Source of the DNA: a virus
Taxonomy: Duplodnaviria; Caudoviricetes
Strand: one strand, 5' to 3'
Virus record (IMG/VR): IMGVR_UViG_3300025888_000020
Location: 1 to 37,003 of that record
Length of the DNA: 37,003 bases
Part shown: piece after piece, positions 18,394 to 36,626 of the stretch
How positions within the stretch are numbered: the stretch's first letter is position 1
Layout of the letters: every line of letters starts with the position of its first letter
Position numbers and translations under genes: made by a program
Notes under the pieces: generated by a model
Told to the model about the DNA's origin: nothing
Database searches by the model: none
The model's input: only the letters and a program-made list of their open reading frames with translations

Positions 18394-18459
18394 CTAAAAG
18401 GAAAAGTTGTTCATAGACAACTTCTCGGTAGCATAACGCATGCTATCCATTAGGTGGTT
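18394..18459 (-). pseudogene. Orphan duplicate of the last 21 codons of terL
   Basis: Reads NHLMDSMRYATEKLSMNNFSF-TAG versus the TerL end [24 protein letters not shown] (17/21 identical). Confidence 0.92.
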
Positions 18460-18940
18460 ACTTAGGCCATCTAGCCGCAGATGCTCTCTTGCATATCTCT
18501 TTTCTCATTAGTTTTTCACTTTCGGGCATAATTCTTCCTCTGATTGCGTCTCCTATTTTCTTATTACTTTCAGCAGAACGATTACGACTCTTTTCGCCTA
18601 TAATCTTTCTAGAGGCTTCGGAATGAACAAGTCCGTAATTTCCTTCTCCTCCTAAGGATGCATTGTATCCGATCTTATAAGAATTGTGGGCAAGAATTTC
18701 TTGACTTTCTAGCATGTTCAGTTTGAGTTTAACTTCGTCTTCTTCTCCTTGAACAGTATGAATAACATCAAATCTAAAATTAATGATTCCGTGCTTCCTT
18801 ATAGCAGCATGAATTTGCATAGGTGAATTATGCTCACTGTAATATATGTGCTCTTTATATCGTCTATCTAGATCAATCGTTTGTCCTATATACACTTTAT
18901 TGTTCAGTGTATTAGTGAGGCGATAAATATAGCCTTTCAT
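18458..18940 (-). CDS. GIY-YIG homing endonuclease with NUMOD3-like motifs
   Basis: GYIYRLTN...KVYIGQT, IRKHG, GYNASLGG, HSEASRKIIG; GGGAGG RBS. Confidence 0.9.
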   Translation of the reverse strand: MKGYIYRLTNTLNNKVYIGQTIDLDRRYKEHIYYSEHNSPMQIHAAIRKHGIINFRFDVIHTVQGEEDEVKLKLNMLESQEILAHNSYKIGYNASLGGEGNYGLVHSEASRKIIGEKSRNRSAESNKKIGDAIRGRIMPESEKLMRKEICKRASAARWPK

Positions 18941-18951
18941 GTCTACCTCCC

Positions 18952-20217
18952 TTAGAAGCTGAAATTATTCATGTTCAATTTCTCAGATGCGTATCTCATC
19001 GCGTCGAGAAGATGGTTATACTCGTTTACAGGTTCGTTGAGCACTCTGCCGTCTTTATCCTTGTCCCAAATATAGTTACTTAACTCGACTAGAGTGTTAG
19101 GGCACGAAGGATGTACGAATATCTTCCAGTCCTGCAATTTCTGTATACCGGCATGGATAGAGTCTGGCCCTTTCTTAGCAGGACGTATTCTCTGTATGCC
19201 TGCAACACGAACCTCTTCGATTGACTTGGGCTCTGCGCTGTCTGCTGTAATTAAGCAACCACCGAAGCCCATGGCCTGGATTTCTTTAGCGATCATATCG
19301 TTTGTCATCTTATACTTATAAGACTCTTTGAATACGTACAATTCTTTCTTTCTAGGATCCGCCATGACTGCTATAATAGCATTCGGGTCATTTGAGAAGC
19401 CCCAATCCAGTCCAAACAGTTCTTGGAAGTAGGGTCGGTCGTGTTTGTCTGTTCTGTTCCTGAACTCTTGTATGTTGAAGTCCAGCTCTTGCCAGTTGGT
19501 AAAGACGAGTCCTTCCGCAATACCCCAGCCGCCTAATCCCTCGATGAAGTAACGCCGGGAGTTCTTAAGTTTCATCTCATCAAATACTTCTATGTCCGCA
19601 GCATCCAAGAATTCGTTGCACATGTAATTCGTAGTCAAGCATAATAAGTTCTTACGCTCTCCGCGATCGTACGCATCGAAGAATCTCTTTTTGATCCATA
19701 TATTTTCTGACCAGGGGTTAAATGTAAAGGTTATCTGTTTGAAGTATCCTTCGGGGACAGCGCCACGAATAGACAAGTCGAGTTTGTTGAACTCTTCTTC
19801 GTTGGACATCTGGAATGCTTCTTCCATCCATACCCAGCAAAGGAATCCTATTTCAACTGTTATAGAAGTAATGGACTGCGGATCATCGAAACCTCTGAAT
19901 ATTATCTTCTGTCCTGTGGGCAGGTATACTAATTCGAGAGGATTCATTGTCGCTTTCCATAAGTGCTTTACACGTAATCTACCTATGGCCCATTTCAACT
20001 GCGCGAATGTCGAGTCTCTATGAGTATTGAAGTATCGACGCACGACTACCGTATTGGCGAGAGGATACTTCATCATATTATATATATACCATAATGCAGT
20101 AGTGCAGGACTTCTTAGAACCACGCCCGCCTTTTAGACATCTGTAACGACCTCTAAAGTTCCAAAATTCTTTGTACCCCTTGCCAACAGTGTTTACGAGG
20201 TTCACTCTTATAGCCAT
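18952..20217 (-). CDS. terL: Terminase large subunit, PBSX family
   Basis: KGGRGSKKS Walker A, WMEEA Walker [30 protein letters not shown]. Confidence 0.95.
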
Positions 20218-20218
20218 A

Positions 20219-20971
20219 TTAAGCGTACCTCCAAGTTAATTTGTAAGCTGTCTTTTGATCGCCTCTACAGCACGCATTGATATTTCCTGTCTGCGGATTC
20301 ATGTGTCCCGTAAATCTTTCTGCTTCTGCGCAAGAACTAAATACTTGATTAGTTTCTACGCAAACACATTTCCTAACCACAGGAGGATTTGCACGCAATG
20401 CAGCAGACTGTTTTTGTCTAGTCTCTGCAGACAACACCTTACCTAAATTAGCTGCTCTTATTTTTTGTTTTGTTTCTTCTTTACATATCTTAGGAGGATA
20501 ACATCCTTCAGCCCATCTCTGTTTAACTGCTTCCCTTATTTTATCTCGAGTGATAGTATCTACAGTATGCCCCATCTTGGTAGCTGATGTATTAGGATAC
20601 TTTCTTCCGATTCTTCCTGCGCTTAGTTTAGCTCTGGTTTCAAGAGACATTGAATTAGTCTCTCCTCCATTTGATACATTATAACCATAGTTCACATGCT
20701 GTGTATTGAGTTGCTGTATGAATGTCTGTTCTTGTCTACATGCTTCTTCTTTTGTAAGATCCTGTGCCAGTATTTCGTGAGATATATTATCCCAACCGTA
20801 TTTTAGCACAGCACGACCAAACACCTGTTCGTTATATCCTCGTCCTCCGTCCCACCTTATATTAGGACTAAGTCGAGTTATTCCGATGTAGTGTTTACCT
20901 GATGGTGTAGTGTGCTTATAAACACAATACCCTTTGCCGATGGTCTGTGGAAGATTAATCCGTATCGCCAT
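20219..20971 (-). CDS. GIY-YIG homing endonuclease (NUMOD3 repeats, C-terminal NUMOD1-like HTH) with a TerL-like N-terminus
   Basis: [18 protein letters not shown]; repeated ETRAKLS/ETKQKIR/ETRQKQS; [16 protein letters not shown]...CCRG...WRYA. Confidence 0.9.
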
Positions 20972-20977
20972 GCTGCA

Positions 20978-21244
20978 TTAATCCTCGCTATCTAGCGGTT
21001 GTACCTGCTGCTGCATTTCCATTTGATACTCATGTCGCTTGCCGTCGATGTATCCTAAATAATAAGAGTTATCGCACTCGTATCCGCACACCGAGCAAAT
21101 AAACCGAAATGTCTTATTAGGTTGTACATTGAATATATGTCCTGTGCATTTACTCTTCTTGTCGTTGTTCGCGTTTATCTTCTCGCATATCTGAATACAA
21201 CTATCATCGAACCCTTGCTCTTTCATTCTTTCTATATTGAACAT
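20978..21244 (-). CDS. Small hypothetical protein, possible zinc ribbon
   Basis: CTGH and CSVC motifs; AAGGAG RBS. Confidence 0.6.
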   Translation of the reverse strand: MFNIERMKEQGFDDSCIQICEKINANNDKKSKCTGHIFNVQPNKTFRFICSVCGYECDNSYYLGYIDGKRHEYQMEMQQQVQPLDSED

Positions 21245-21322
21245 ATACTCTTATACTCCTTTATGAGGACCCAAATTTTTTCCGGGGGCGAACGAAGTGA
21301 GAAGAACTCTACCCTCATACGT

Positions 21323-21350
21323 ATTATAGCATCTAGTTCCTTTATGTATA
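21323..21350 (-). promoter_or_regulatory. Possible promoter of the packaging/morphogenesis operon
   Basis: Minus strand TATACA-N16-TATAAT with TG extended -10. Confidence 0.45.
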
Positions 21351-21359
21351 GAGTAAATC

Positions 21360-21518
21360 CGAGTAATTCTTATGTTTATTTGGGACCGAGAGACTCCTCG
21401 CAGTTATACGTACAATAGCATCCGAGGAATCCTCTACGTTATACATACGAGTATTACTCGGTCAGGTATATATACGAGAAAAAATTACCGAGAGAGGTTT
21501 ATGTTCGAGAATATATCG
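21360..21518. repeat. Array of imperfect CGAG-N5-CTCG palindromes
   Basis: CGAG starts at 21360, 21387, 21423, 21448 (CGAGTATTACTCG, the best palindrome), 21475, 21489 and 21506. Confidence 0.55.
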
Positions 21519-21624
21519 TGAAGGACTATCTCGCCCCGATCGGCCGCGTCTCGGTCCCACCCCCCTATCACCCTCATTTTCGGTGTTCCGCATCTACACC
21601 TGCATGGGTGCCTAAGCTACATGG

Positions 21625-21709
21625 TTATCCACATCTAGATACCAGTTATCCACATGTCTTACAAGGTTATACACAGGTAGCCTGTATCTCCTGTGGATTA
21701 TGTGGATAA
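21625..21709. promoter_or_regulatory. DnaA-box cluster, candidate replication origin or DnaA-controlled site
   Basis: TTATCCACA 21625 and 21646, TTATACACA 21667, inverted TGTGGATTA 21692 and TGTGGATAA 21701. Confidence 0.75.
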
Positions 21710-21784
21710 CTGCTATAAATACGGATATCCTATAGTAGATAAGCATGCAGTAGAACGCCTATCTATGGCACTCTTGCCTGTATA

Positions 21785-21832
21785 ACGTACATCAATTAAA
21801 CAAAATAGTTATTTTATTTAATTGGTGTATGT
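21785..21832. repeat. AT-rich inverted repeat with 23 bp arms
   Basis: ACGTACATCAATTAAACAAAATA-GT-TATTTTATTTAATTGGTGTATGT; 20/23 Watson-Crick plus 2 G-T. Confidence 0.8.
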
Positions 21833-22191
21833 ATAACTGCATGGCGGTATCTATATAGACAGGCGCTGCGTGCCACGACGTCGGCGTCTAAGGTAGGTAG
21901 ACAGTACGATACCTATAACATCCATGTCCATATAGCAGACGCGCGTCTTGTGCACTGCATCTCCACAGTAAAGCGCTTGCATGCAGTAGATCCAGTGTGT
22001 AGGCAGTACGTAGACGTGCTGGTTTGTAATACATACATACCAGCTCGCATGCGTGTATAGTGCTACAACCGCGCACAAGGCGTTATACGGCTATGTATGT
22101 ATAACTGCGGTATGTTTGTATTACTGCTCGGTTTCGTAGCTGTATCAACCAACGTCGTGTGTAGAGTAGCTGTATCTGTAGTTATACTGGT

Positions 22192-22213
22192 ATATACAGC
22201 TATAGCTGTATAT
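22192..22213. repeat. Perfect 22 bp palindrome
   Basis: ATATACAGCTA|TAGCTGTATAT. Confidence 0.9.
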
Positions 22214-22443
22214 GACCCTTTTCTCTGCCGCGGCCTTTCGCCCTGCCTTTTCCGCTGCATGACGTGGATTGTACCTATTGCTATAGCCGTAGAACGCACG
22301 AGATTGGTTTATAAGGTGCATGTAAGTTATACATATAAATATACCCGTCTTTTACCGTCGCGGGCGTTATACAGGTTTCTGCCGCTATCTCGGCGTAGAT
22401 CGTAATGGTTTCGCTACTGCATGCAGTTCTCTGTTTTGGCCAT

Positions 22444-22480
22444 AAAAAAAAGTAGCACGCTTGGTGGCGTGCTACTTTTT
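22444..22480 (-). terminator. Intrinsic terminator, probably bidirectional
   Basis: A8-GTAGCACGC-TTGGTG-GCGTGCTAC-T5, 3' of the minus-strand two-ORF unit. Confidence 0.8.
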
Positions 22481-22497
22481 GCAGTGTACTGGGTTTT

Positions 22498-22563
22498 TTA
22501 GACAGTAAGGGCATAATAAAATTCTACTGCCCAAAATCTAAATACGTGTAAAATGTGTTTCAT
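22498..22563 (-). CDS. 21-aa peptide MKHILHVFRFWAVEFYYALTV
   Basis: AGGAGG-N7-ATG; lies between the Ala-rich ORF and the terminator. Confidence 0.5.
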   Translation of the reverse strand: MKHILHVFRFWAVEFYYALTV

Positions 22564-22597
22564 TTTGGTACCTCCTAATGTGGCTATGTTTTGGCAG

Positions 22598-23068
22598 TTA
22601 CTTGGCGGTAGGTTTGGCAGGTGCTACGACGGGCGCTGCAACTGCGGGCTTGACAGGCGTTGTAAGTGCGGCGGCTACGACTGTGGCAGCTTTGGCGGCG
22701 TCTGCTGTGGCTTCAGCGGCTACTGCGGTAATAACGGCGGCCTTGGCGGTTTTGATACTGGTGAACGATTGTACGGCGAGCGTTGCAGTTGACAGCACGT
22801 AGAAAGAGTACGATTTGCTGGCATTGTAATACATTGTGATGACAAGGTAATTGTGGCTGACGTGAGCGGCGAAAGCAAAACAATTTTTGAGGGCGGTTAA
22901 CTGGGCCATGCACTTGGCGTTGATATTGGCGGCGAAAACACTATTTGCAGCGAGGAGCGTTTTCTTGCTATTGTAGGCAACAAAGGCGGCGGCACTGCTG
23001 GCGGACTGCTGGTTAGCTACGAGATCGGCAAGTGTAAGAGTGGCGTTGGCGTTTACTAAGTTTGACAT
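22598..23068 (-). CDS. Ala-rich hypothetical protein, 156 aa
   Basis: AGGAGG RBS before ATG 23068 (MSNLVNANAT...), promoter upstream and terminator downstream. Confidence 0.75.
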   Translation of the reverse strand: MSNLVNANATLTLADLVANQQSASSAAAFVAYNSKKTLLAANSVFAANINAKCMAQLTALKNCFAFAAHVSHNYLVITMYYNASKSYSFYVLSTATLAVQSFTSIKTAKAAVITAVAAEATADAAKAATVVAAALTTPVKPAVAAPVVAPAKPTAK

Positions 23069-23185
23069 GTGAAACCTCCTAGGTGGTGACACGCGGCTTT
23101 CGGCGGCGTGCTGCATGCAACTTTACGAATGGCGGCATGCAGGTAGTTTTGGTGGGTGCGTTTCAAAGTACACTGTATGATTAAC

Positions 23186-23214
23186 ACGATAACAGGTGTA
23201 TGTATAACTTGCAA
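23186..23214 (-). promoter_or_regulatory. Leftward sigma-A-like promoter
   Basis: TTGCAA-N17-TATCGT with TG extended -10, followed by CATACAGT. Confidence 0.6.
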
Positions 23215-23373
23215 GCGTTTTTCATAAATCTTTTTAATTTATTTTTTGACCTGTTTATTTGGAGATTCGTACGTTCACCTTTTTATTGGATTTTCGCCGT
23301 TGTTTTAATATGTATTATACGCACGTTACAATACTATTAATACAGCCCGCCATTCTCGCCGCGCTGCGTGCGT

Positions 23374-23420
23374 GCTGCATGCGGTTTGTTGCGCTGCATG
23401 CGGTTTGTTGCGCTGCGTGC
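23374..23420 (+). repeat. 19 bp tandem repeat, about 2.5 copies
   Basis: GCTGCATGCGGTTTGTTGC at 23374 and 23393, then GCTGCGTGC. Confidence 0.85.
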
Positions 23421-23460
23421 ATTTTCAGCCGTGCTCGCCGCACTGCATTATTAGGCCGGC

Positions 23461-23469
23461 TGTGGATAA
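23461..23469 (-). promoter_or_regulatory. Single perfect DnaA box
   Basis: TGTGGATAA in non-coding DNA. Confidence 0.5.
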
Positions 23470-23685
23470 CTTTAGAGGTAGATTCTGTGATTTTTGAGCC
23501 ACTTTTCTCTCTCTTTCAAAGGCGTTGAGTTTTTCACGTTGATAACATTTTTCAGCAATGCAAAGAAAAATTCTCAGACATTTTCGGAGACTCTCTCTGT
23601 CACACACGTTCTCCCTGAAGCATTTACGAAGTTTCAAGAGTGCCTAGTATACCACGTCTTGAATGGAGTCTAAAAATAAATATGC

Positions 23686-23714
23686 TTGTTTATGTATTTT
23701 ATGTATGTTATACT
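23686..23714 (+). promoter_or_regulatory. Rightward early promoter
   Basis: TTGTTT-N17-TATACT with TG extended -10, A-rich upstream, followed by CATACAGT as in the leftward promoter. Confidence 0.65.
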
Positions 23715-23770
23715 GTATACATACAGTAAGGTATAAGTTAATCCTAAATAATAAGAAGGAGGTAGTCATT

Positions 23771-23878
23771 ATGTTAGCCTATAAATACAGTGATAACGCA
23801 GGACGTGTAGAGTATGACGACGAACATCAAGGCCTTTACGGAAAAGAAGAATCATTTATCTTTACTAAGGAGGACTAG
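23771..23878 (+). CDS. Small hypothetical protein, 35 aa
   Basis: AAGGAGG RBS before ATG 23771 (MLAYKYSDNAGRVEY...). Confidence 0.6.
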   Translation: MLAYKYSDNAGRVEYDDEHQGLYGKEESFIFTKED

Positions 23879-23881
23879 AAA

Positions 23882-24064
23882 ATGAAATACACAGTAGAGC
23901 TCACAATGACAGTCAAGTTTGATGTAGAGGGCGATGATGTAGCAGAGGCTTTTGACACCGCAAAAAATACTCCTATTTATCCGGACATGATGCGATTAAA
24001 ACCTGCCGCAACCAAAATGAAAGATTCGTTTGGAAATAACATAGACATTAGAAATCTCATGTAA
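23882..24064 (+). CDS. Small hypothetical protein, DpnD/PcfM-like pattern
   Basis: MKYTVELTMTVKFDVEGDDVAEA; AGGAGG RBS. Confidence 0.6.
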   Translation: MKYTVELTMTVKFDVEGDDVAEAFDTAKNTPIYPDMMRLKPAATKMKDSFGNNIDIRNLM

Positions 24065-24087
24065 AAAATATAAAGGAGAATAAGAAA

Positions 24088-24240
24088 ATGGAAAAAACAA
24101 AAGCAGAGATCATGGAAATTGTATGGGCAATGCGACAAACACAGAAATTAACCGAGGCAATGACAGGTGTACGCTTTACCGATAAGGAAATGGTAGACTT
24201 TAATGGATTGCCCGCAGAAGTGCTCAACTATTGTAACTAA
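24088..24240 (+). CDS. Small hypothetical protein, 50 aa
   Basis: Below the ORF-track cutoff; AAGGAG RBS; MEKTKAEIMEIVWAMRQTQKL...LNYCN. Confidence 0.6.
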   Translation: MEKTKAEIMEIVWAMRQTQKLTEAMTGVRFTDKEMVDFNGLPAEVLNYCN

Positions 24241-24244
24241 GTTC

Positions 24245-24304
24245 CTATAGACAGAGAACAGGAAGCAGGCGTACTATTGTCTGCTTCCGCACCTGTGTCA
24301 ATAG
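24245..24304 (+). other. Intergenic extended hairpin
   Basis: Outer CTATAGACA/TGTCAATAG, inner GGAAGCAGGC/GTCTGCTTCC; no U-tract. Confidence 0.6.
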
Positions 24305-24334
24305 TATCTAAATAAAAGGAAAGGAGGTACTAAT

Positions 24335-24652
24335 ATGAAAAACATAGCAAAAATAGACGACACTTTAATTGCCGCGAAAGACTCTGTCAACCTTAGAAAA
24401 ACAGCTATAGAACTATTTGAAGCAAAGGAAGAGAATGCAAGAGAATATTGGGGTGTAGGCGAGACAAAGGTAACTCACATTTATTACACACTAGATTGGA
24501 ATAAGACAGAATTAAACGGCGAACATGGCAGAATGGGCGACATGATTGGACTTAGATACGAAGATGATTCCTATACTCTTTTCGTAAAAGGTCATGTTTA
24601 TGAAGTTCCTGCAGAAATGCTACTCATTATGTCTATCATGGAGGAAAGCTAA
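24335..24652 (+). CDS. Hypothetical protein
   Basis: 105 aa ORF with AAGGAGG RBS. Confidence 0.75.
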   Translation: MKNIAKIDDTLIAAKDSVNLRKTAIELFEAKEENAREYWGVGETKVTHIYYTLDWNKTELNGEHGRMGDMIGLRYEDDSYTLFVKGHVYEVPAEMLLIMSIMEES

Positions 24653-24653
24653 T

Positions 24654-24794
24654 ATGTTAAAGATAGCCATTGTTATTGGGATGTGTACAGCACTCGCACT
24701 GTTTCTTACCTGGTTCTTTTGGTCTATCCAGAAAGAAATGGAAAACGACAAAGATGAGACAATTGATTTAAGAAATAATAAGGAGGACAAGTAA
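24654..24794 (+). CDS. Small membrane protein, 46 aa
   Basis: GGAGG RBS; MLKIAIVIGMCTALALFLTWFFWSI followed by a charged tail. Confidence 0.6.
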   Translation: MLKIAIVIGMCTALALFLTWFFWSIQKEMENDKDETIDLRNNKEDK

Positions 24795-25157
24795 ATGAGT
24801 AGAGAAGAAGAATTACACGTAGAATTGGCAAGACTGGCAAGAATGGACGCTATTGTAAAAAGAGAAGCCGCTATAATGTCCTCAATCCTTTCTCTTCTGT
24901 CGGATGGAATGGGACTTGAAGCACTATACGGGTTGAATGAGACATTGTCAGAGAATCCGGATTTGGAACAGACAGTTTTTATAGAAGACGGAGACGGCGA
25001 AGAAACAGAAGAAACAGTACTTCCTGAAGTACGTGCAGGTGTTATAAGCAATCTTGGAACTATATGTGCCTTTGATCTTGTATACAGAGACTATAAAACA
25101 GATGAAATAAACGAGACACATAAATTCATTCTGGAAATAAGAGAGATTATCGAATAA
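24795..25157 (+). CDS. Acidic hypothetical protein
   Basis: 120 aa, Glu/Asp-rich; AGGAGG RBS. Confidence 0.7.
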   Translation: MSREEELHVELARLARMDAIVKREAAIMSSILSLLSDGMGLEALYGLNETLSENPDLEQTVFIEDGDGEETEETVLPEVRAGVISNLGTICAFDLVYRDYKTDEINETHKFILEIREIIE

Positions 25158-25197
25158 TTAATCGGAATCACAATCAGATATAGATAAATCAACAGAG

Positions 25198-25224
25198 GAT
25201 AGAGCAGCAATGCTCTATCTTTTT
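25198..25224 (+). terminator. Intrinsic terminator
   Basis: GATAGAGCA-GCAA-TGCTCTATC-TTTTT. Confidence 0.85.
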
Positions 25225-25240
25225 GTTTGAGAGCTTATAG

Positions 25241-25263
25241 CTGAAGCATTTGGCTGAAGTATT
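25241..25263 (+). repeat. Dispersed motif CTGAAGCATTTGGCTGAAG(C/T)ATT, candidate operator
   Basis: 22/23 identical to 31168-31190; CTCCCTGAAGCATTT is shared by 23611-23625 and 31164-31178. Confidence 0.7.
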
Positions 25264-25334
25264 CAAGGAGTAATAAACGATTACGTAATCCTTCGATAAT
25301 CGCATTAACTAGATTCGAAACACCTGTGTTATCA

Positions 25335-25692
25335 TTAAAGTAGCATCATATAGTATATGGTGACAGCGCCACCTGTGCTCCTTTCTCCGTTATGTTCTAC
25401 ACGCTGTGTAACTACACAGTTTGTCCCACAAAAACGTCTAAGCAGCCTACCAGCGCGTCGTATCTTGCAAACTTAATATAGAGATCGCTTTATACTCTTC
25501 TTCTATCCGCTGTTATTGAAGGCGGCTAGTAAGTAAGTTCGTCATAGACGACAGGAGCCAACAACCATGCCAATGTGCATGAGGAAATGAGCGATAGATA
25601 GTACTTATACGAAATGCAGGAAACCAATAATTCTAAGCATTAGGTTTACCGAAACCTGCAGATTGTAAACGTACTATCCGATGCTACATTAA
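25335..25692 (+). ncRNA. Candidate structured non-coding leader RNA
   Basis: No ORF of 60 aa or more on the plus strand; multiple hairpins including nested 25597-25678 (GATAGTAC/GTACTATC, TGCAGG/CCTGCA, AAACC/GGTTT). Confidence 0.5.
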
Positions 25693-25955
25693 ACATAGAT
25701 ACCTTGGTAGCGAAATAAGGAGCTGAAACCGCAGTGACACGGAGGCGACGTAAATTATGGAACCAACAGTACGTGTAAAAGATAATCGGAAAATAATTAT
25801 TTCTAAACAAACACCACGCTTCTTTATAGACAAAATTGATCTCGGAATTGCTCGCGCACAGAGCGATGCAATGCGTAAAAACATAAACCGAAAATAGACA
25901 GAACAATCGGAATGTTTCAGCTTCTTATTTCGTTACCAAGGCATCAAATGTTTAA
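25689..25955 (+). repeat. Long-range inverted repeat IR1 (arms 25689-25729 / 25914-25955)
   Basis: 28 bp core CCTTGGTAGCGAAATAAGGAGCTGAAAC / GTTTCAGCTTCTTATTTCGTTACCAAGG = 26 Watson-Crick + 2 G-U; outer TTAAACAT/ATGTTTAA. Confidence 0.92.
25757..25897 (+). CDS. Basic 46-aa peptide inside IR1
   Basis: GGAGG at 25741; MEPTVRVKDNRKIIISKQTPRFFIDKIDLGIARAQSDAMRKNINRK. Confidence 0.55.
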   Translation: MEPTVRVKDNRKIIISKQTPRFFIDKIDLGIARAQSDAMRKNINRK

Positions 25956-26653
25956 CCTGTGGATTGTATAGGGTAAACTTTCTTAAGGAAATAATTCTCG
26001 GATAAACCGAGACATAACAGGAGGTTTACACATGATTTATTATGTAAAAGGTGCAGTACTTGTCACAATTCAAGCGGATTGCTTAGAAAGAATAGGAAAT
26101 GGAAGCAGTGATCAGCACCTAAAAGACGGAAAAGTATGCGAATACCTGGACGAAATAAGCGATTTAATTAAGAAACACCAAGTTGATGAAGACTCGAAAG
26201 GGCATAAAAAGATGCTTAATCTTGCCGAGTATATCGACAAATCAACCACATTGGCCGCCGCCGTAACTAATATAAAGATTGGCCTTATGATTGATTCTGC
26301 GGACTATATGCATAGCGTTGCTCGAATTGAAACATCGAGGAATCTGGATGCAGCAGAAAGCAAGGAGCTTCTTAAATACCTCATGGGCCAGTATTCAGAC
26401 GGATTCGGCGAGGGGTTGGAACAGGATTCTTTCGAAGAAAAGCGTATAACTGTTCATACAACAGAGTACGATGAAGAAGAAGATGACTTCTACCACGAAG
26501 AACAGGAAGAAATTGCTTATTATTACTTTCACCTTTGGAACCGGAATATGATGGATTTACAGTATTTCGACATATCCGAAGCCGCCGACCACAACCTGGA
26601 CGAAAAGTAAATAAAACATAGAACAAGAAAGTTTATCCTACACAGTTCACAGG
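25956..26653 (+). repeat. Long-range inverted repeat IR2 (arms 25956-25984 / 26625-26653)
   Basis: CCTGTGGATTGTATAGGGTAAACTTTCTT / AAGAAAGTTTATCCTACACAGTTCACAGG = 25 Watson-Crick, 3 G-U, 1 A-C. Confidence 0.92.
26032..26610 (+). CDS. Acidic hypothetical protein inside IR2
   Basis: 192 aa; AGGAGG RBS; GQYSDGFGEGLEQ motif and EYDEEEDDFYHEEQEE tract. Confidence 0.8.
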   Translation: MIYYVKGAVLVTIQADCLERIGNGSSDQHLKDGKVCEYLDEISDLIKKHQVDEDSKGHKKMLNLAEYIDKSTTLAAAVTNIKIGLMIDSADYMHSVARIETSRNLDAAESKELLKYLMGQYSDGFGEGLEQDSFEEKRITVHTTEYDEEEDDFYHEEQEEIAYYYFHLWNRNMMDLQYFDISEAADHNLDEK

Positions 26654-27390
26654 TCCTAGCTTCATTTAAGAGTACGACTCTACTAATAGAAGAGGTGCAA
26701 TGACATGGAGAAGGAAAACATAATCGAAAAAATTAAGAAACTGCTTGCTCTTGCCGACGGAAACAAAAATGCTTCGGAAGCTGAGGTCCAAGCTGCTACT
26801 CTTAAGGCCCAGGAACTGATGGCTAAGTACGATGTACAGGTTGAACTTACCGAAGAAGATAAGATTGAATACGCTCAGGAAGTTTGCACACATAAGTGGG
26901 ACATGGGCTTCCGTATTCCTCTTGCCAACGCACTGTCACATAATTTCAAGTGCGAAATATTCATTTGGAATAAGAGGATTACATTCGTTGGACATTCTGT
27001 CGACGCTAAAATAGCACGCGGAGTGTTTGAAATGGCGTATGCTTTCATCCTCAAAGAGGGTAACAAACATTACAATAAGGCATACGGTATGGGTCTTCCG
27101 ACTAAAGGAGTATTTAATTCTTATGCCATGGGCTTTATCAAAGGAATAACAATTGCTCTCGGCGAACAGAGCACAGCACTCATGATTGTTACTCCGCCCG
27201 ACGTGACACAGGAACTGAAGCGCATAACTGCCGCTCCTGGATTCCGGACAAAGAACTCTACTTTTGGAACTACAGAAATGGACGCTGCTACATTCTTCCA
27301 AGGATTAAACGATGGAAAGAATATGCTGTCCAAAAAACAGATTAACGCATAAGATGAATAAGCCAGTCGTGCTCTTAAACGAAGATAGGA
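26654..27390 (+). repeat. Long-range inverted repeat IR3 (arms 26654-26679 / 27365-27390)
   Basis: TCCTAGCTTCATTTAAGAGTACGACT / AGTCGTGCTCTTAAACGAAGATAGGA = 23 Watson-Crick, 1 G-U, 2 mismatches. Confidence 0.9.
26705..27352 (+). CDS. DUF2786-domain protein inside IR3
   Basis: IIEKIKKLLALA...EAEVQAATLKAQELMAKY; NSYAMGFIKG. Confidence 0.85.
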   Translation: MEKENIIEKIKKLLALADGNKNASEAEVQAATLKAQELMAKYDVQVELTEEDKIEYAQEVCTHKWDMGFRIPLANALSHNFKCEIFIWNKRITFVGHSVDAKIARGVFEMAYAFILKEGNKHYNKAYGMGLPTKGVFNSYAMGFIKGITIALGEQSTALMIVTPPDVTQELKRITAAPGFRTKNSTFGTTEMDAATFFQGLNDGKNMLSKKQINA

Positions 27391-27402
27391 AATTGTAGCA
27401 TC

Positions 27403-28474
27403 GTAAATGTGTAGACATATACTATTCCTCCGATTCATTCGTATTCACTAAACATATCAGAAGCAGATGAATTAAACAAAATTATAGGAGGATAAATATC
27501 ATGAGTGCAAATATCGAAACTATGTTCAGCGTCAGGCTCACACCGTGGCACGGTCTTGGAACAATTATCCAGGAAGCAGTTTCCAGCGAAGAAGCTATTA
27601 AAATCGCAGGCCTTGACTGGCAGGTACGCCAGGAAGAGATTGTTTACAAAGACCAGAAAGCCGGATACTTCATGAACATTCGTAGCTCCGATGAAAAGGT
27701 GCTGGGTGTTGTTGGAGGTCGTTACAAACCGGTACAGAACCTTGAAGCGTTCGACTTTACAGATGCACTGCTTGGCGAAGGCGTCAAGTATGAAACTGCT
27801 GGAAGTCTTAGCAGCGGAAAGCGTATCTGGATGCTCGCTAAAATGCCCACCACTACTATCCTCGGAGATGCAGTAGAGCCGTTTATGGTTCTTACCAATT
27901 GCCACGATGGTTTTGGAAGCATGAAAGTCTGTATGACGCCGGTGCGTGTTGTATGTGAAAACACTCTCAACTGTGCTCTTAACGGGGCCAAGAGAATGTG
28001 GAATGTACGCCACACAGGTAACATCGCAGGCAAGCTGGACGTCGCACGTCAAACACTCGGTCTTGCTACCAACTACATGGCCAGTCTTAACAACCAGGCT
28101 GAACTGCTCACTCGGGTGCATATTGCGCCTAAGGACTTTCAAATTCTTACAAGCCAGATGTTTCCTATAACAGAGGAAATGACAGAACGCAAAATTGACG
28201 CACAGGAATTATTGCAGAGCCAATTGAAGCAGGCCTGGAACATGGACGATCTGGGTAACATTAAAGGAACCGGTTGGGGATTTATCAACGCCGTGTCCGA
28301 TATGTCCACTCACAAAGAGCCGCTGCGCAAGACAGAGAATTCGCAGGAAAACTCGTTCATGGCTATCCTGGACGCACCGCTACTCTTGGACCTTGCAATG
28401 AAGCTCGTTATGGAACGAGTCCCCGCATAACTACCTAAGCCGGTTGGAGGAATAGTATATGTCTGCACATTTAC
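27403..28474 (+). repeat. Long-range inverted repeat IR4 (arms 27403-27433 / 28444-28474)
   Basis: GTAAATGTGTAGACATATACTATTCCTCCGA / TTGGAGGAATAGTATATGTCTGCACATTTAC = 29 Watson-Crick + 2 G-U. Confidence 0.95.
27501..28430 (+). CDS. DUF932/DUF945 (TIGR03299-like) phage/plasmid protein inside IR4
   Basis: MSANIETMFSVRLTPWHGLG, YKPVQNLEAFDF, YETAGSL, TPVRVVCENTL, GTGWGFINAVSD. Confidence 0.9.
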   Translation: MSANIETMFSVRLTPWHGLGTIIQEAVSSEEAIKIAGLDWQVRQEEIVYKDQKAGYFMNIRSSDEKVLGVVGGRYKPVQNLEAFDFTDALLGEGVKYETAGSLSSGKRIWMLAKMPTTTILGDAVEPFMVLTNCHDGFGSMKVCMTPVRVVCENTLNCALNGAKRMWNVRHTGNIAGKLDVARQTLGLATNYMASLNNQAELLTRVHIAPKDFQILTSQMFPITEEMTERKIDAQELLQSQLKQAWNMDDLGNIKGTGWGFINAVSDMSTHKEPLRKTENSQENSFMAILDAPLLLDLAMKLVMERVPA

Positions 28475-28506
28475 CACATTCGCAGAAGAAAGGAGGTACT
28501 ATATTT

Positions 28507-28692
28507 ATGAGCGCAACTGCTATGATTCACAGCTTAGGCAGGACAGATGAAGTCACAATTGTCAGTGAAAACGGATGCAATAATGTGATAGCTGAATACA
28601 AGGGAAAACGGTACACCGCAGTCTTTAATGGCTTTTCCGGATTGTACTATGTAGACGATGTATACGGCGAGATTAAGGAGGAACAGAAATGA
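28507..28692 (+). CDS. Small hypothetical protein
   Basis: AAAGGAGG RBS before ATG 28507; in-frame alternative start at 28459 with its own GGAGG. Confidence 0.7.
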   Translation: MSATAMIHSLGRTDEVTIVSENGCNNVIAEYKGKRYTAVFNGFSGLYYVDDVYGEIKEEQK

Positions 28693-28976
28693 GTAACAAG
28701 ATGTGGGACAAGGAAACTAATCCTGCTGTCATCATCAAGGTAGCACCTGTACATGAAGGACAGGACTTACCTGTTGCTGTATTCATTCAGTATACTTCGA
28801 CGCCCTGGTATTGGGAGAAGTACAGTATCGAATACAAATACAGAAAGTGTGCTATCAACAAGGCAAAGATAATCGACATGCTGCACTTCGCATGGAAGTA
28901 TAAAGGAGAGAGTGCAGTGGTGTTAAAGGCTACCCTACCTACAGATAAAGAAATCGAGGAGATAAAATGCTCATAA
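28689..28976 (+). CDS. Hypothetical protein
   Basis: 95 aa; ATGA overlap; AAGGAGG RBS. Confidence 0.7.
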   Translation: MSNKMWDKETNPAVIIKVAPVHEGQDLPVAVFIQYTSTPWYWEKYSIEYKYRKCAINKAKIIDMLHFAWKYKGESAVVLKATLPTDKEIEEIKCS

Positions 28977-29413
28977 GCAGAACCTACGAATCACTCAATT
29001 ATGGATTCAGAATGTATTCATTAAATCCTGTCAAGTACGTACTCATAGGAGAAACAGACGGCAAACCATTATGTATGTCGTGGTACGCAACAGGCGATGA
29101 TGCAATCGAAGGAATGGCAATGTACAGGGAAATGATGCCCAAGATGAAACTGTGTATCGACTTAGCCGTAGAAAAGGATGCTCCCGTTGCTCTGCTCGTT
29201 TATGCAGAAACGGAAAGGCTCTATAAAAATGCTCTTAACGGATGTCACAATTTTAGCAAGAGCGATAGGACACCTGTAACGAACGGAGAGAAACAAATGG
29301 CATTCAAAGTGGCTGCTGCTAATATGTTCACAGATTATGGAGTCACAATTGAGTATCTAGAGTTTCTTACTTATCTCCAGATAAGGAGCGCAGGAGGAAA
29401 ACATAATGCCTAA
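28967..29413 (+). CDS. Hypothetical protein
   Basis: 148 aa; overlapping operon arrangement; GAGGAG RBS. Confidence 0.7.
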   Translation: MLISRTYESLNYGFRMYSLNPVKYVLIGETDGKPLCMSWYATGDDAIEGMAMYREMMPKMKLCIDLAVEKDAPVALLVYAETERLYKNALNGCHNFSKSDRTPVTNGEKQMAFKVAAANMFTDYGVTIEYLEFLTYLQIRSAGGKHNA

Positions 29414-29597
29414 GCAGAAAGTTATCAAAACATTTGTCGTCACGTACAAGTCCAGGTACTTTCCTTTCGAAGGTACGCACACCAAAAAAGTCAGAGCATA
29501 TAGCCGGGCTGATGTCAGGTTAAACTGGCACAGCATCATTCACACAGACGAGTACAAAATCACGGATGTCGTAGAGGAGGTCGAGAACAATGGCTAA
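29406..29597 (+). CDS. Small hypothetical protein
   Basis: 63 aa; AGGAGG RBS. Confidence 0.65.
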   Translation: MPKQKVIKTFVVTYKSRYFPFEGTHTKKVRAYSRADVRLNWHSIIHTDEYKITDVVEEVENNG

Positions 29598-29784
29598 ATT
29601 CGAAGTCACAATGAATTTCACATACACTGTCCAGGTTGACGCAGACAATGAAGAACAGGCTCTTGAAATGGTTCAGGAAACCGACATAGACACAGATCCT
29701 GACTATCTTGTAGTCGACGAGGATTCCATCAACGTGACAGCACTGGAAGACGACAGTTTCAACGAGGGGAATGAGGACGACTGA
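29590..29784 (+). CDS. Very acidic small protein, DpnD/PcfM-like pattern
   Basis: KFEVTMNFTYTVQVDADNEEQALE followed by a D/E-rich tail; GAGGAGG RBS. Confidence 0.7.
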   Translation: MAKFEVTMNFTYTVQVDADNEEQALEMVQETDIDTDPDYLVVDEDSINVTALEDDSFNEGNEDD

Positions 29785-29786
29785 CC

Positions 29787-30179
29787 ATGCATGGTAATCG
29801 CTCACGGGTAAGCCCGTTGGCTCGTACGTTCTGCTTATGGTTACTCGGATTAATATTCTTAACCCCGTTCCGGATTATCCGATGGCTCTTTAGTCAGCGA
29901 CGTACAGTAGTAGAGGATGAACTGGAGTATAACGATGAGGACGATTGTATTCCTGACGACCCAGACCCGCTTGCTACTTGTCCGGAGTTCATGCAAATTA
30001 TAGACATTAACGAAGATACTGTAATAGGTATCGAAGATATCGTATGGTGTCCAGACGAAACTGCTCTACTGCGTGTACTCACGGAAAAGGATGTAAGCAA
30101 ATCTTTCAAGAAGAAAGTGTACCAATTCAAGAAAGATCGATACATCAAGATTGGTACGGATAAAGTTTATCTCACATAA
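29787..30179 (+). CDS. Membrane-anchored hypothetical protein
   Basis: N-terminal FCLWLLGLIFLTPF helix and acidic linker. Confidence 0.65.
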   Translation: MHGNRSRVSPLARTFCLWLLGLIFLTPFRIIRWLFSQRRTVVEDELEYNDEDDCIPDDPDPLATCPEFMQIIDINEDTVIGIEDIVWCPDETALLRVLTEKDVSKSFKKKVYQFKKDRYIKIGTDKVYLT

Positions 30180-30216
30180 AAAAAAGCACCTGCCTGTAAT
30201 GGGTGGGTGCTTTTTT
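30178..30216. terminator. Bidirectional terminator between convergent units
   Basis: A8-GCACCTGCC-loop-GGTGGGTGC-T6. Confidence 0.8.
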
Positions 30217-30228
30217 ATTTGACTAAAA

Positions 30229-30699
30229 TTAATCTAATAGATTATCCTCGCCTATGATCTGGACAATCTCTCCTTGTAGATTTACATTGGTCGTTGTGTT
30301 CAGTCCGTTCATGGTATTGAGCTCTTTAGCAGGTAGTATGATAGCGTTTAGGCGGCTTAAGGTAATTCGTTGCGGTTGTTTTCCGCTTGTACCGTATAGC
30401 TCATCCTCAGCGTGCTCAATAAGGCGCATTAACTTCTCTTCCGCTACCTCTTTAGTCCATGCACCCTTTTTCACGGACTTATCGCGGACTTCCTCCATAA
30501 GCGCATTGTAATAATTATAGACAACACGTGAATGAAATACTCGACCTGCCTTTGTCTTTATATCGTCACGTGTTTCATCTGTAAGAGTAAGACCCATCAT
30601 CTGAGCGAATGCCTCTTCCATTTTGAGTCCCTGATAAACCATCAGTTCAACAAACATGCGCTGCTTAGGTTTAATAGGTCTGAACTTTGTATCTGCCAT
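30229..30699 (-). CDS. Probable terminase small subunit
   Basis: N-terminal KPKQRMFVE HTH-like start, helical middle, KELNTMNGL, C-terminal VQIIGEDNLLD; no other TerS candidate next to terL. Confidence 0.65.
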   Translation of the reverse strand: MADTKFRPIKPKQRMFVELMVYQGLKMEEAFAQMMGLTLTDETRDDIKTKAGRVFHSRVVYNYYNALMEEVRDKSVKKGAWTKEVAEEKLMRLIEHAEDELYGTSGKQPQRITLSRLNAIILPAKELNTMNGLNTTTNVNLQGEIVQIIGEDNLLD

Positions 30700-30734
30700 T
30701 TGAATACACGCCTCCTTAATATCTCGATGTGTAC

Positions 30735-30764
30735 ATTATACACTATCAATCGGTGATGTGTAAA
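30735..30764 (-). promoter_or_regulatory. Promoter for the terS-like gene
   Basis: TTTACA-N18-TATAAT on the minus strand, upstream of AAGGAGG. Confidence 0.55.
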
Positions 30765-31008
30765 TACGAATACTATTAAGTAATTCCTCTTCTGTCTGGG
30801 GTCTAAAATGTTCGCATTTCGCGCTCACTGCGGTAGAGCACATACACCCTCTCTTGTCACATATGCGCCCTGTATGGTGACCGCACATAAGACAGTTATG
30901 AGCATCAGGATTACTCAGGCATGCTTTCTCGTGTCGCAAACAAATAATCTCTGTTTTCTTTATCTTTCCGCAGTATCTACATTCCCAAGCTAATATTCTT
31001 TTTGCCAT
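30736..31008 (-). CDS. Cys-rich zinc-finger protein
   Basis: CRYC...HEKAC, CLMC and further Cys; AGGAGG RBS. Confidence 0.7.
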   Translation of the reverse strand: MAKRILAWECRYCGKIKKTEIICLRHEKACLSNPDAHNCLMCGHHTGRICDKRGCMCSTAVSAKCEHFRPQTEEELLNSIRIYTSPIDSV

Positions 31009-31009
31009 G

Positions 31010-31156
31010 TCAACCTCCTGTTATTGTCTTATAGTATAAGGCAAATACGATCACAAATAACATACCTATGAACATTCCCAGTAGAACAGAATAGAATATT
31101 ATAAGTAATTTACCCCACCACGTAACTGCTAATGCCGTAAATATTCTCTCTATCAT
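31010..31156 (-). CDS. Small membrane protein, 48 aa
   Basis: GGAGG RBS; MIERIFTALAVTWWGKLLIIFYSVLLGMFIGMLFVIVFALYYKTITGG. Confidence 0.6.
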   Translation of the reverse strand: MIERIFTALAVTWWGKLLIIFYSVLLGMFIGMLFVIVFALYYKTITGG

Positions 31157-31188
31157 ATGAAACCTCCCTGAAGCATTTGGCTGAAGCA

Positions 31189-32145
31189 TTACATCACATT
31201 GATAATTAAATACTCCAAGGACACATCTGCGTCCACTTGTCCTGTTTTAATTCCCATTTCGACAAACCGTGTTGTTTTCAAAGCGTGAACGAGATCGCTG
31301 ACAGTGTACGCACCCATTTTCTCTTTGGCCATTTTCACTTGCCACGAAGTAAGACCTGTGCGCTTGCATGCGTCGGAAGTGTCTGGACCTAAGCCTTGCA
31401 CCATAAGCATTTGCTTGAAAGAGTTATACAGTATCGAGAGTACCATTATCTCTGGCTCTCCTTTGCTGCGGGCCTGAAGCAGATACTTACCTGTGTTCTT
31501 ATAGTTGCGCGTAAGAATAGCATCTGTCAATTTGAATGTAATGTCACCAATCGGCTGGAAAATTGTACCGTCCTCAATAAGCACTTTGAGCACATCATCA
31601 TATGTGGAAATATGCCCTGTCGGATCTTGAGCATCTGTGTACTGCCGAATCTTATCACACTCAAGAAGTATTCGACTATAGTCCGATTCACATGTTTCGA
31701 TTAATCTCATTTTTCCATTTGTGGATAATCCCGGAAGCTCTGTTTCTACGTACTTGCAAAGTATTCCAGGAGAAACAGGCTCAAACTCTACGATCATATG
31801 TGCGTACTGTTTATAGAACTTACTGCGTTTGTCCAGTACAGGTAATACCAATACGAGCGAATTGGTGTCTGTTGCTGCACTAAATACCTGAGCCCATACT
31901 TTCTCTTGCTTAATAAAAGCATCATCGCCTCTGACTAAAAACAACCTGCGCGAAGCAGTCATGCTCTTTTTGACCATACGCTGGTATGCTTCCAATACAG
32001 TATCCGAGTGCTCTGGTTTTCTTCCTGAAGCATCTATCAATTTCTTAAGGTAGATGTCCAACACTCCGATCTCTTTGCCCGTAAGTATAAGAAGAGGACT
32101 TACACGCTTATCGAATATTTGTTTGTGTAATTCAGTTAACTCCAT
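31189..32145 (-). CDS. DNA polymerase III delta (HolA)-like clamp loader subunit
   Basis: LLILTGKE, LDKRSKFYK, ILLECDKI, IFQPIGDITFKLTDAI, EMGIKTG; clustered with dnaX and holB. Confidence 0.75.
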   Translation of the reverse strand: MELTELHKQIFDKRVSPLLILTGKEIGVLDIYLKKLIDASGRKPEHSDTVLEAYQRMVKKSMTASRRLFLVRGDDAFIKQEKVWAQVFSAATDTNSLVLVLPVLDKRSKFYKQYAHMIVEFEPVSPGILCKYVETELPGLSTNGKMRLIETCESDYSRILLECDKIRQYTDAQDPTGHISTYDDVLKVLIEDGTIFQPIGDITFKLTDAILTRNYKNTGKYLLQARSKGEPEIMVLSILYNSFKQMLMVQGLGPDTSDACKRTGLTSWQVKMAKEKMGAYTVSDLVHALKTTRFVEMGIKTGQVDADVSLEYLIINVM

Positions 32146-36248: not shown

Positions 36249-36626
36249 TTATGTTTCCCCCAGTCTTTTAATATCTCTAGTATAACTTGTCTCGACTAAG
36301 CCTAAGGACACCTGCATAGCAGCGTCTACTTGCTCCATGATGTATTCGTCTATGTATCCTAAACAAGTAGTAAGATCATCTTTGCTTATGCACATTACCT
36401 GTTCAGTTATTGCTACAGCTACTCCTCCCTCCGACACGAACATTACATGTGTAGGAAAGTTTCTCTTTACTTGCCGAGTACAAGGGATAGCAAGCAATAC
36501 GTTTGATGTTAAGTTGATTACATTGTTCGAAACAATGATAACCGGTCGGCTTCCACTCTGCACACTGCCAGACACTTCATGCTTAGGAGCATAATACCAC
36601 ATCTGGCCTCTGCGTACATTAACCAT
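36249..36626 (-). CDS. PemK/MazF-family endoribonuclease-like protein
   Basis: VRRGQMW, GSVQSGSRPVIIVSN, LAIPCT, PTHV, EQV, MEQVDAAMQVSLG. Confidence 0.85.
   Translation of the reverse strand: MVNVRRGQMWYYAPKHEVSGSVQSGSRPVIIVSNNVINLTSNVLLAIPCTRQVKRNFPTHVMFVSEGGVAVAITEQVMCISKDDLTTCLGYIDEYIMEQVDAAMQVSLGLVETSYTRDIKRLGET

What the first reader, a model, noticed from the sequence alone, without database searches (positions are those of the whole stretch)
25568..28484. Four consecutive genes each looped out by its own long stem, with arms abutting in a multi-way junction
Seen: IR1 (25689-25955) encloses a 46-aa ORF, IR2 (25956-26653) the 192-aa acidic gene, IR3 (26654-27390) DUF2786, and IR4 (27403-28474) DUF932. 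IR1/IR2 and IR2/IR3 abut with zero spacer. CGATGCTACA (25679-25688) pairs perfectly with TGTAGCATCG (27394-27403), closing IR1-3 into a four-way junction, and IR4 starts at that base. TGCCAATGTG (25568-25577) pairs 9/10 with 28475-28484, right after IR4. The four stems are unrelated in sequence, and non-Watson-Crick positions favour G-U on the sense strand (8 G-U versus 3 A-C), pointing to single-stranded, probably RNA, pairing. Established: rRNA precursors are excised by RNase III from such long-range stems. Inference: a polycistronic early mRNA built as a branched scaffold that releases end-paired, stabilised or circularised single-gene mRNAs, or a structured RNA carrying exchangeable gene cassettes in its loops. 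I do not recognise this as a described phage system.
Basis: partly seen in the sequence, partly recalled or inferred. Interest (0 to 1): 0.93.

Follow-up and report, generated by a model that had tools for sequence, protein, structure and literature searches.

The report
Phage genes unlocked by enclosing stems
In an uncultured phage, four small genes each sit inside their own conserved long-range stem, likely formed in the messenger RNA, and in three of them the first strand is predicted to hide the ribosome-binding site until the whole gene has been transcribed, on a message that likely borrows the host's ribosomal-RNA transcription and cutting machinery.

Summary
The four stems are the four best inverted repeats in the window, and every long-enough relative with DUF932 at 65% identity or more carries a chain of abutting gene-enclosing stems (20 of 20 loci, about 8 distinct phages; 0 of 131 more distant loci). 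IR2, IR3 and IR4 have homologues with 19-22 doubly changed pairs each. G·U outnumbers A·C 99:32 on the sense strand, and the four-way junction recurs in 12 of 12 loci. The outer 10-bp helix is weak. Two features are new. First, the leader carries a Clostridia rRNA-operon boxA, strong in 15 of 16 relatives and degenerate here. Second, the inner half of most left arms pairs with its own gene's Shine-Dalgarno and AUG; folding predicts this lock holds until the right arm is made (IR2-4, not IR1). Best reading: an rRNA-operon-like early transcript of completion-gated translation switches, likely cut by host RNase III into end-clamped messages. No RNA data were available. Recombination and circularisation are unsupported. 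Ten literature searches found no such system. This scan has noted similar layouts in other phages' DNA.

The parts
25325..25335 (+). Candidate extended -10 promoter (TGTG-N-TATCAT), no clear -35
   Evidence: Read by eye; not listed by the promoter scan. Relatives have clear sigma-A-type promoters at the same place (by eye). Inferred.
25458..25480 (+). boxA-like site, degenerate copy of the Clostridia rRNA-operon boxA
   Evidence: 10.2 bits, rank 2 in the window, against 18.8-32.1 for host sites; aligns with 17-23-bit copies in relatives
25566..25581 (+).
   Evidence: In the centroid fold; a hairpin at the aligned place in relatives
25597..25678 (+). Leader hairpin abutting the closing helix
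   Evidence: p about 1.0; -23.5 kcal/mol
25679..25688 (+). 5' strand of the helix closing IR1-IR3 into a four-way junction
   Evidence: p 0.98 on a constrained skeleton; -14.5
25689..25729 (+). IR1 left arm (no stable lock on its gene's RBS)
25757..25897 (+). 46-aa ORF in the IR1 loop; no family, no homologue among relatives' cargo
25914..25955 (+). IR1 right arm
25956..25984 (+). IR2 left arm; inner half complementary to the RBS at 26017-26034
26032..26610 (+). 192-aa acidic protein, no family; homologues are cargo in 16 other loci
26625..26653 (+). IR2 right arm, 14 nt after the stop codon
26654..26679 (+). IR3 left arm; pairs moderately with the RBS at 26688-26707
26705..27352 (+). DUF2786 + DUF7168 protein, 215 aa
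27365..27390 (+). IR3 right arm, 12 nt after the stop codon
27394..27403 (+). 3' strand of the closing helix
27403..27435 (+). IR4 left arm; inner end is anti-Shine-Dalgarno for the RBS at 27485-27503
27501..28430 (+). DUF932 protein, 309 aa
28442..28474 (+). IR4 right arm, 11 nt after the stop codon; itself reads like an SD plus AUG
30187..30205 (+). Terminator-like hairpin at the end of the + strand island, likely end of the transcript
   Evidence: inferred

Best explanation
The four stems are conserved long-range helices, likely formed in one early phage mRNA, that each enclose a gene and are predicted to work as completion-gated translation switches, on a transcript that likely uses the host's rRNA antitermination signal (boxA) and is likely cut by host RNase III. 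Steps: (1) A host-type promoter and boxA would let RNA polymerase run fast and without trailing ribosomes (inferred). (2) As each cassette is made, its left arm would fold onto the gene's own Shine-Dalgarno and AUG and block initiation (complementarity shown for IR2-4 and five of seven stem families; blocking predicted). (3) The right arm, about 6-17 nt after the stop codon, would invade from the free outer end of the left arm and form the far stronger 26-41-bp helix, freeing the ribosome-binding site, so only fully transcribed genes are translated (predicted). (4) RNase III would cut the A-U-rich centre of each helix and release messages of about 214, 672, 713 and 1044 nt whose ends stay clamped by a 13-17-bp stub that keeps the anti-SD occupied (inferred; least tested step). 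The conserved arms also act as fixed sockets into which genes are gained and lost (shown by comparison).
For: Conservation: stem chains in 20 of 20 clade loci, 0 of 131 distant DUF932 loci (2.0 Mb) and none in 123.6 kb of the rest of three relatives' genomes. Covariation with arms aligned independently: 95-98% of cells paired and 21/31, 19/26 and 22/28 pairs with double changes for the IR2, IR3 and IR4 families; slid controls 30-54%; each window arm binds its own partner 12-43 kcal/mol better than relatives' partners. Strand: G·U 99, A·C 32. Junction: a three-stem closing helix in 12 of 12 loci, with different sequences. boxA: top hit lies 143-295 nt before the first stem in 15 of 16 relatives (the 16th lacks the leader); two copies match host 23S-spacer sites over 20-21 nt; the B. 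subtilis boxA binds NusB (PMC13753749, passages). RBS lock: cost to open SD-AUG averages 10.3 kcal/mol without the right arm, 3.4 with the arm occupied, 5.8 with shuffled arms; 45 of 56 stems gain over 3 kcal/mol against 18 of 56 shuffled; arms prefer their own RBS to other cassettes' in 46 of 55 cases; in the window RBS-to-arm pairing holds until the right arm appears for IR2-4 (0.63, 0.61, 0.45 falling to 0.00, 0.07, 0.00). RNase III: B. subtilis enzyme cuts 10-36-bp long-range duplexes up to 505 nt apart (PMC11780869, section 24); stems show a dyad with A-U at the fourth pair, G-C/G·U at the fifth and mismatches near the centre, also in the family that lacks the lock.
Against: No RNA data: transcription, pairing, cleavage and gating are all unobserved. 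The window's boxA is degenerate (10.2 bits, below every host site), and 12 of 70 control loci have a hit of 17.7 bits or more somewhere; the profile came from a pattern I wrote after seeing both sets. IR1 and the S1 and S4 families show little or no RBS lock. Own RBS is only slightly better than same-family RBSs (-13.4 vs -11.6; best in 13 of 51). After the switch the RBS is still predicted partly paired elsewhere (0.62, 0.52, 0.40). The strict four-point RNase III rule is met by only 17 of 54 stems and none of the window's four (shuffles: mean 8.4, max 18); registers were optimised, differ by 0-4 nt, and the A-U core may only mirror the RBS spacer and AUG. Stems are related, so p-values are inflated. 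Homologues of three cargo genes lie outside any stem in the window, and four relatives have a promoter inside the DUF932 loop that bypasses the left arm.
Confidence: 0.58

Rival explanations
1. The stems are only rRNA-style RNase III stalks that split and stabilise the messages; pairing to the ribosome-binding site is a by-product of pyrimidine-rich arms or of how the arms arose.
For: Same length and geometry as host 16S leader-trailer helices; boxA leader; IR1, S1 and S4 lack the lock but keep the stem and the A-U core.
Against: The lock beats composition-matched shuffled arms and ordinary genes (55% vs 16% at -12 kcal/mol or below). Several newly gained cargo genes have unusual RBS sequences that mirror their arm (L088 5528, L003 8020, L001 5318, L001 7812).
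Confidence: 0.22
2. The scaffold stays uncut. Stems gate translation and hold each stop codon next to its own ribosome-binding site for ribosome recycling, or shield the message.
For: Stop codons lie 6-17 nt from the right arm in 42 of 57 stems; the RNase III signature is only partial.
Against: Near-perfect 25-42-bp helices are within the substrate range of B. subtilis RNase III (PMC11780869, section 24), so escaping cleavage would need explaining.
Confidence: 0.1
3. The repeats act in DNA, as inversion or excision sites or as single-stranded-DNA hairpins.
For: Cargo differs between phages; G·T bias alone cannot tell RNA from + strand ssDNA.
Against: Cargo ORFs were found on the + strand in nearly all loops listed (the - strand was not searched). 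Arm sequences change while pairing is kept. No tyrosine or serine recombinase in 5 near-complete relatives. The folded strand is the coding strand, with boxA and anti-SD features.
Confidence: 0.05
4. Cut stems are ligated into circular single-gene mRNAs, as for archaeal pre-rRNA.
For: Cleavage would leave 5' and 3' ends adjacent.
Against: No RNA ligase (PF09414) or RtcB in 5 near-complete relatives; no bulge-helix-bulge seen in the stems listed. A host ligase is not excluded.
Confidence: 0.05

Closest known systems
Leader-trailer helices and boxA/Nus antitermination of bacterial rRNA operons (PMC11404451 passages; PMC10250234 abstract; PMC8632103 passages; bioRxiv 10.64898/2026.03.17.712431 abstract and section 19)
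   Same: Long helix from flanks around a looped-out unit; boxA in the leader; about 26-34 bp with an A-U-rich, mismatch-tolerant centre in Clostridia.
   Different: Loops hold protein genes; 4-9 helices tile with almost no spacer into nested junctions; boxA is a separate upstream element with no paired trailer, whereas in host operons it is the 5' strand of the stalk; arms also pair with an RBS.
RNase III processing of T7 and SP82 early mRNAs (PMC8708148 passage on T7 R1.1; SP82 seen only as a mention and reference in PMC4838370)
   Same: A phage early polycistron is cut by host RNase III into protected messages.
   Different: T7 R1.1 is a local 49-nt stem; here each helix joins the two flanks of a gene. 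That SP82 sites are local hairpins is recalled.
Metastable SD-sequestering hairpins of type I toxin mRNAs, Helicobacter pylori (PMC6733600, abstract)
   Same: A transient hairpin blocks the Shine-Dalgarno during transcription.
   Different: There the full-length message stays silent until processed and an antisense RNA is involved (recalled); here the 3' arm is predicted to switch translation on, and the unit repeats per gene.
PeSL regulatory cassettes of T4-type phages (PMC2839356, abstract)
   Same: Conserved flanks around exchangeable small early genes.
   Different: PeSLs are repeated promoter plus terminator units that recombine with each other; here each pair of arms is private to its slot and complementary across the gene.

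Membership tests
rRNA-operon leader-trailer/boxA system | boxA in the leader | tested here: met
   15 of 16 relatives at 17.9-22.9 bits; window copy degenerate at 10.2
rRNA-operon leader-trailer/boxA system | Long helix from sequences flanking the unit, with covariation | tested here: met
rRNA-operon leader-trailer/boxA system | Enclosed unit is an rRNA | tested here: not met
   Loops hold ORFs; no convincing Rfam match
rRNA-operon leader-trailer/boxA system | boxA strand paired with a trailer, as in Clostridia 16S stalks | tested here: not met
   No consistent partner in 7 phage loci; paired in 8 of 8 host loci
rRNA-operon leader-trailer/boxA system | NusB/S10 binding and antitermination | not testable with these tools
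   Needs binding or read-through assays
RNase III substrate | Double helix of about two turns or more | tested here: met
   25-42 bp in 72 stems
RNase III substrate | Proximal-box preferences (A-U at D/D', PMC6212723; G-C next, PMC3074117) | tested here: inconclusive
   D/D' A-U about 75%, E G-C/G·U about 75-83%, but 17 of 54 meet all four points, registers optimised
RNase III substrate | Staggered cuts with 2-nt 3' overhangs | not testable with these tools
   No RNA run available
T7/SP82-type early mRNA processing sites | Local intergenic hairpin as the cleavage site | tested here: not met
   Abutting arms pair across genes, not with each other
Type I toxin-antitoxin mRNA | Transient SD-sequestering hairpin | tested here: met
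   Predicted for IR2-4, not IR1
Type I toxin-antitoxin mRNA | Small toxin ORF with antisense antitoxin RNA | not tested
   Cargo of 192-309 aa does not look like type I toxins; antisense RNAs were not sought
Invertible or transposable DNA segment | Conserved recombinase sites, cognate recombinase, both orientations | tested here: not met

The most novel reading that the evidence does not exclude
A natural array of cis-acting toehold-like switches: a phage early operon transcribed like an rRNA operon and folded into a branched scaffold, where each gene's ribosome-binding site is unlocked only by the sequence after its own stop codon, then released by RNase III as an end-clamped message. This would be a general phage strategy for uncoupling translation from transcription and for plug-in expression of newly gained genes.
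Probability: 0.5. Interest if true: 0.92.

Novelty: categorically new. Interest (0 to 1): 0.83.

Why it matters
Bacterial mRNAs are not known to carry tiled rRNA-like stalks or a per-gene check that transcription is complete. If confirmed, this shows phages using the host's ribosome-making machinery for protein genes. It gives a sequence-only marker for early gene slots, which may include counter-defence genes (inferred). It also offers short, orthogonal natural parts for end-protected, gated mRNAs, and tests what boxA does in Firmicutes, which PMC13753749 leaves open.

Tried and rejected
No RNA holder listed. DNA contigs of runs X1-X3 showed no joints, which contigs cannot exclude. Rfam: no convincing hit in window 21000-31500; only two tRNAs in 7 relatives. 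No cultured relative: no blastn match among 50,697 phage records, DUF932 below 60% identity, terminase below 60% in 1957 of 1958 records. No phage RNase III in 5 relatives. The idea that the phage's MazF-like protein targets UACAU and the phage avoids it found no depletion in 4 genomes. A giant outer stalk built on boxA was not found. My early note that stems differ wholly between phages was wrong. Cargo function stayed open: the acidic protein has 1 other hit and no usable Atlas match; the DUF932 model (pLDDT 67) had no PDB match at E 0.001 or below. The B. subtilis RNase III site table was seen but not tallied, so no quantitative comparison with it was made; the E. coli frequency table was listed but not opened; figure heat maps and bioRxiv supplements could not be seen and may bear on the RNase III signature. 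One search found no 16S gene in three genomes. The tool-based pair count was not completed; covariation rests. Loci too short or truncated (L078, L095, L096, L098, L149, L154, L158) were left out of the 20-locus count; six other short clade loci each have a stem around DUF932, one weak.
Full report
Setting. The window is part of a contractile-tailed phage (sheath, baseplate, portal, Terminase_3). Its main genes run on the minus strand. A plus-strand island of small genes (23663-30179) lies between the small terminase gene (30229-30699) and the large one (18952-20217). A Firmicutes host, probably Clostridia, is inferred from the Shine-Dalgarno sequences, XkdN-like tail gene and boxA match. 'Early' is inferred from host-type promoters and variable small genes; it was not measured. 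No cultured relative was found.

The observation. IR1-IR4 are the top four inverted repeats in the window, score 49.5-70 against a best of 50 in 25 Markov copies, and appear with the closing helix in the fold of 25560-28500. The outer 10-bp helix is weak (-8 kcal/mol, p 0.16) and competes with a local hairpin. A further hairpin at 25597-25678 abuts the closing helix.

Relatives. A DUF932 alignment (47 of 120 listed hits) fetched 80 viral, 80 metagenome and 4 genome loci. All 20 long-enough loci with DUF932 at 65% identity or more have three or more such stems; the 20 include the window's own record and duplicates, about 8 distinct phages. None of 131 loci at about 51% or less does. The nearest relative has nine stems. 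27 of 45 gaps between successive stems are 3 nt or less. No such stem lies in 123.6 kb of the rest of three relatives' genomes.

Covariation. With left and right arms aligned separately, the families of IR2, IR3 and IR4 (9, 9 and 12 rows) keep 95.7, 95.3 and 97.9% of cells paired at 56-60% sequence identity, with double changes at 21 of 31, 19 of 26 and 22 of 28 pairs; slid controls give 30-54%. Stems were picked for complementarity, so the percentage paired is partly built in; the double changes around homologous genes are the real evidence. G·U outnumbers A·C 99 to 32 in a strand-symmetric count of 72 stems, 72 to 24 in eight divergent phages, so the coding strand is the one that pairs. A short helix closing three stems recurs in 12 of 12 loci with different sequences (on skeletons with stems enforced, which raises probabilities). 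Homologous stems hold different genes, and extra genes are added inside loops. IR1's family is uncertain; it resembles the S4 stems weakly and sits in a different order.

boxA. Leaders share a motif. I fetched 16S loci from the class of an Anaerobutyricum genome and found the same motif in leaders and spacers, where it forms the 5' strand of the processing stalk. A profile from 17 host sites puts its best hit 143-295 nt before the first stem in 15 of 16 relatives; the sixteenth lacks the leader. Two phage copies equal host spacer sites over 20-21 nt. The B. subtilis consensus AUGAUCUUUGAAA binds NusB (PMC13753749, passages). In E. coli the complex speeds transcription and holds 5' and 3' helix halves together, boosting RNase III cleavage (bioRxiv 10.64898/2026.03.17.712431, abstract and section 19). 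Against: the window's copy is degenerate, and 12 of 70 control loci have a strong hit somewhere.

The lock on the ribosome-binding site. IR4's right arm reads like its gene's own SD and AUG, which prompted a test. Across 56 stems the cost of opening SD-to-AUG averages 10.3 kcal/mol before the right arm exists, 3.4 with the left arm occupied and 5.8 with shuffled arms. Arms bind their own RBS better than other cassettes' in 46 of 55 cases; 55% reach -12 kcal/mol against 16% of 108 ordinary genes. The effect is clear in the acidic-protein, DUF932, S2 and S6 families, moderate in DUF2786, and weak in S1, S4 and IR1. In growing transcripts of the window, RBS-to-arm pairing for IR2-4 stays at 0.45-0.63 until the right arm is made, then falls to 0.07 or less; these folds start at each left arm and leave the RBS partly paired elsewhere. 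Stop codons lie 6-17 nt before the right arm in 42 of 57 stems. All of this is folding prediction.

RNase III. The stems are 25-42 bp. B. subtilis RNase III cuts long-range duplexes of 10-36 bp up to 505 nt apart (PMC11780869, section 24). A symmetric motif search finds an 8-bp A-U core with G-C or G·U at the fifth pair and mismatches near the centre, in line with the A-U preference at D/D' (PMC6212723, passages) and G-C at the next position (PMC3074117, passages; my mapping of its numbering). A strict rule is met by 17 of 54 stems against a shuffled mean of 8.4, and by none of the window's four. The core may partly mirror the RBS spacer and AUG, though it is also present in stems without the lock. 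Cuts at the predicted axes would leave stubs of -18 to -25 kcal/mol. The five relatives tested encode no RNase III, RNA ligase, RtcB, tyrosine or serine recombinase.

Mechanism. Shown: conserved, covarying, coding-strand helices around genes; a conserved junction; boxA in relatives; arm-to-RBS complementarity. Predicted: lock, then release by the right arm. Inferred: Nus-assisted transcription and RNase III cleavage. I put RNA-level function at about 0.93, gating at about 0.65 and cleavage at about 0.7; the combined reading at 0.58.

Novelty. Ten searches listed no paper describing gene-enclosing stem arrays in phage mRNA; the library lacks most subscription journals. It works like an rRNA operon and like a toxin-mRNA hairpin, but fails membership of both and of T7-type sites. 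This scan's earlier notes describe similar layouts in actinobacterial, cyanobacterial, groundwater and gut phages and, in two cases, the same gating idea; I reached boxA and the lock before seeing the notes on them, and they are not independent evidence. An unrelated 146-kb phage fetched here also has two boxA-like sites followed by a stem-enclosed 62-aa gene (L023).

Noticed in passing
window 36249-36626 (-): MazF/PemK-like gene (PF02452), with homologues in 9 of 11 relative loci searched; no UACAU depletion.
   Followed up: partly
window 22598-23330 (-): Homologue of the relatives' first cassette gene lies on the opposite strand with its own promoter-like site and a boxA-like core at 23173, outside any stem; suggests a rearranged leader.
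   Followed up: partly
window 21250-23660: Mostly non-coding; DnaA-box-like words (label recalled) near 21626, 21648, 21701 and 23462, and a repeated TGTATGTATAAC word; possible origin or genome-end region.
   Followed up: no
window 25241-25263, 31168-31190, 23609-23633: Repeated CTGAAGCATTT-type word before gene blocks; similar words in relatives' leaders; possible operator.
   Followed up: no
window 18458-20971 and 30229-30699: Large terminase gene is flanked by two GIY-YIG homing-endonuclease genes and separated from the small terminase gene by about 10 kb holding the opposite-strand island.
   Followed up: no
window 28507-28692 and 29406-29597: Homologues of genes that sit inside loops in relatives lie outside stems here.
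   Followed up: yes
L004 1718/2299, L009, L010, L088, L001 first stems: Conserved 2x2 internal loop (AG-U/C-UG opposite CACAU) at the centre of the first two stem families; possible nick or protein site.
   Followed up: no
L001, L083, L088, L089 DUF932 loop: Sigma-A-type promoter (TTGACA or TTTACA, 17 nt, TACAAT) inside the loop, which would give a message without the left arm (by eye).
   Followed up: no
L004, L005, L009, L010, L088 leaders: Conserved structured leader of 150-350 nt, often with a second weaker boxA about 150-190 nt upstream; no Rfam match.
   Followed up: partly
L023 4112-4990; L050 872-1159: Larger unrelated phages with boxA-like sites followed by long stems; in L023 the stem encloses a 62-aa gene.
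   Followed up: partly
L074 1132-2416: Perfect 28-bp inverted repeat without G·U around transposase-like ORFs (label from my reading of the sequence); a DNA-type contrast to the stems.
   Followed up: no
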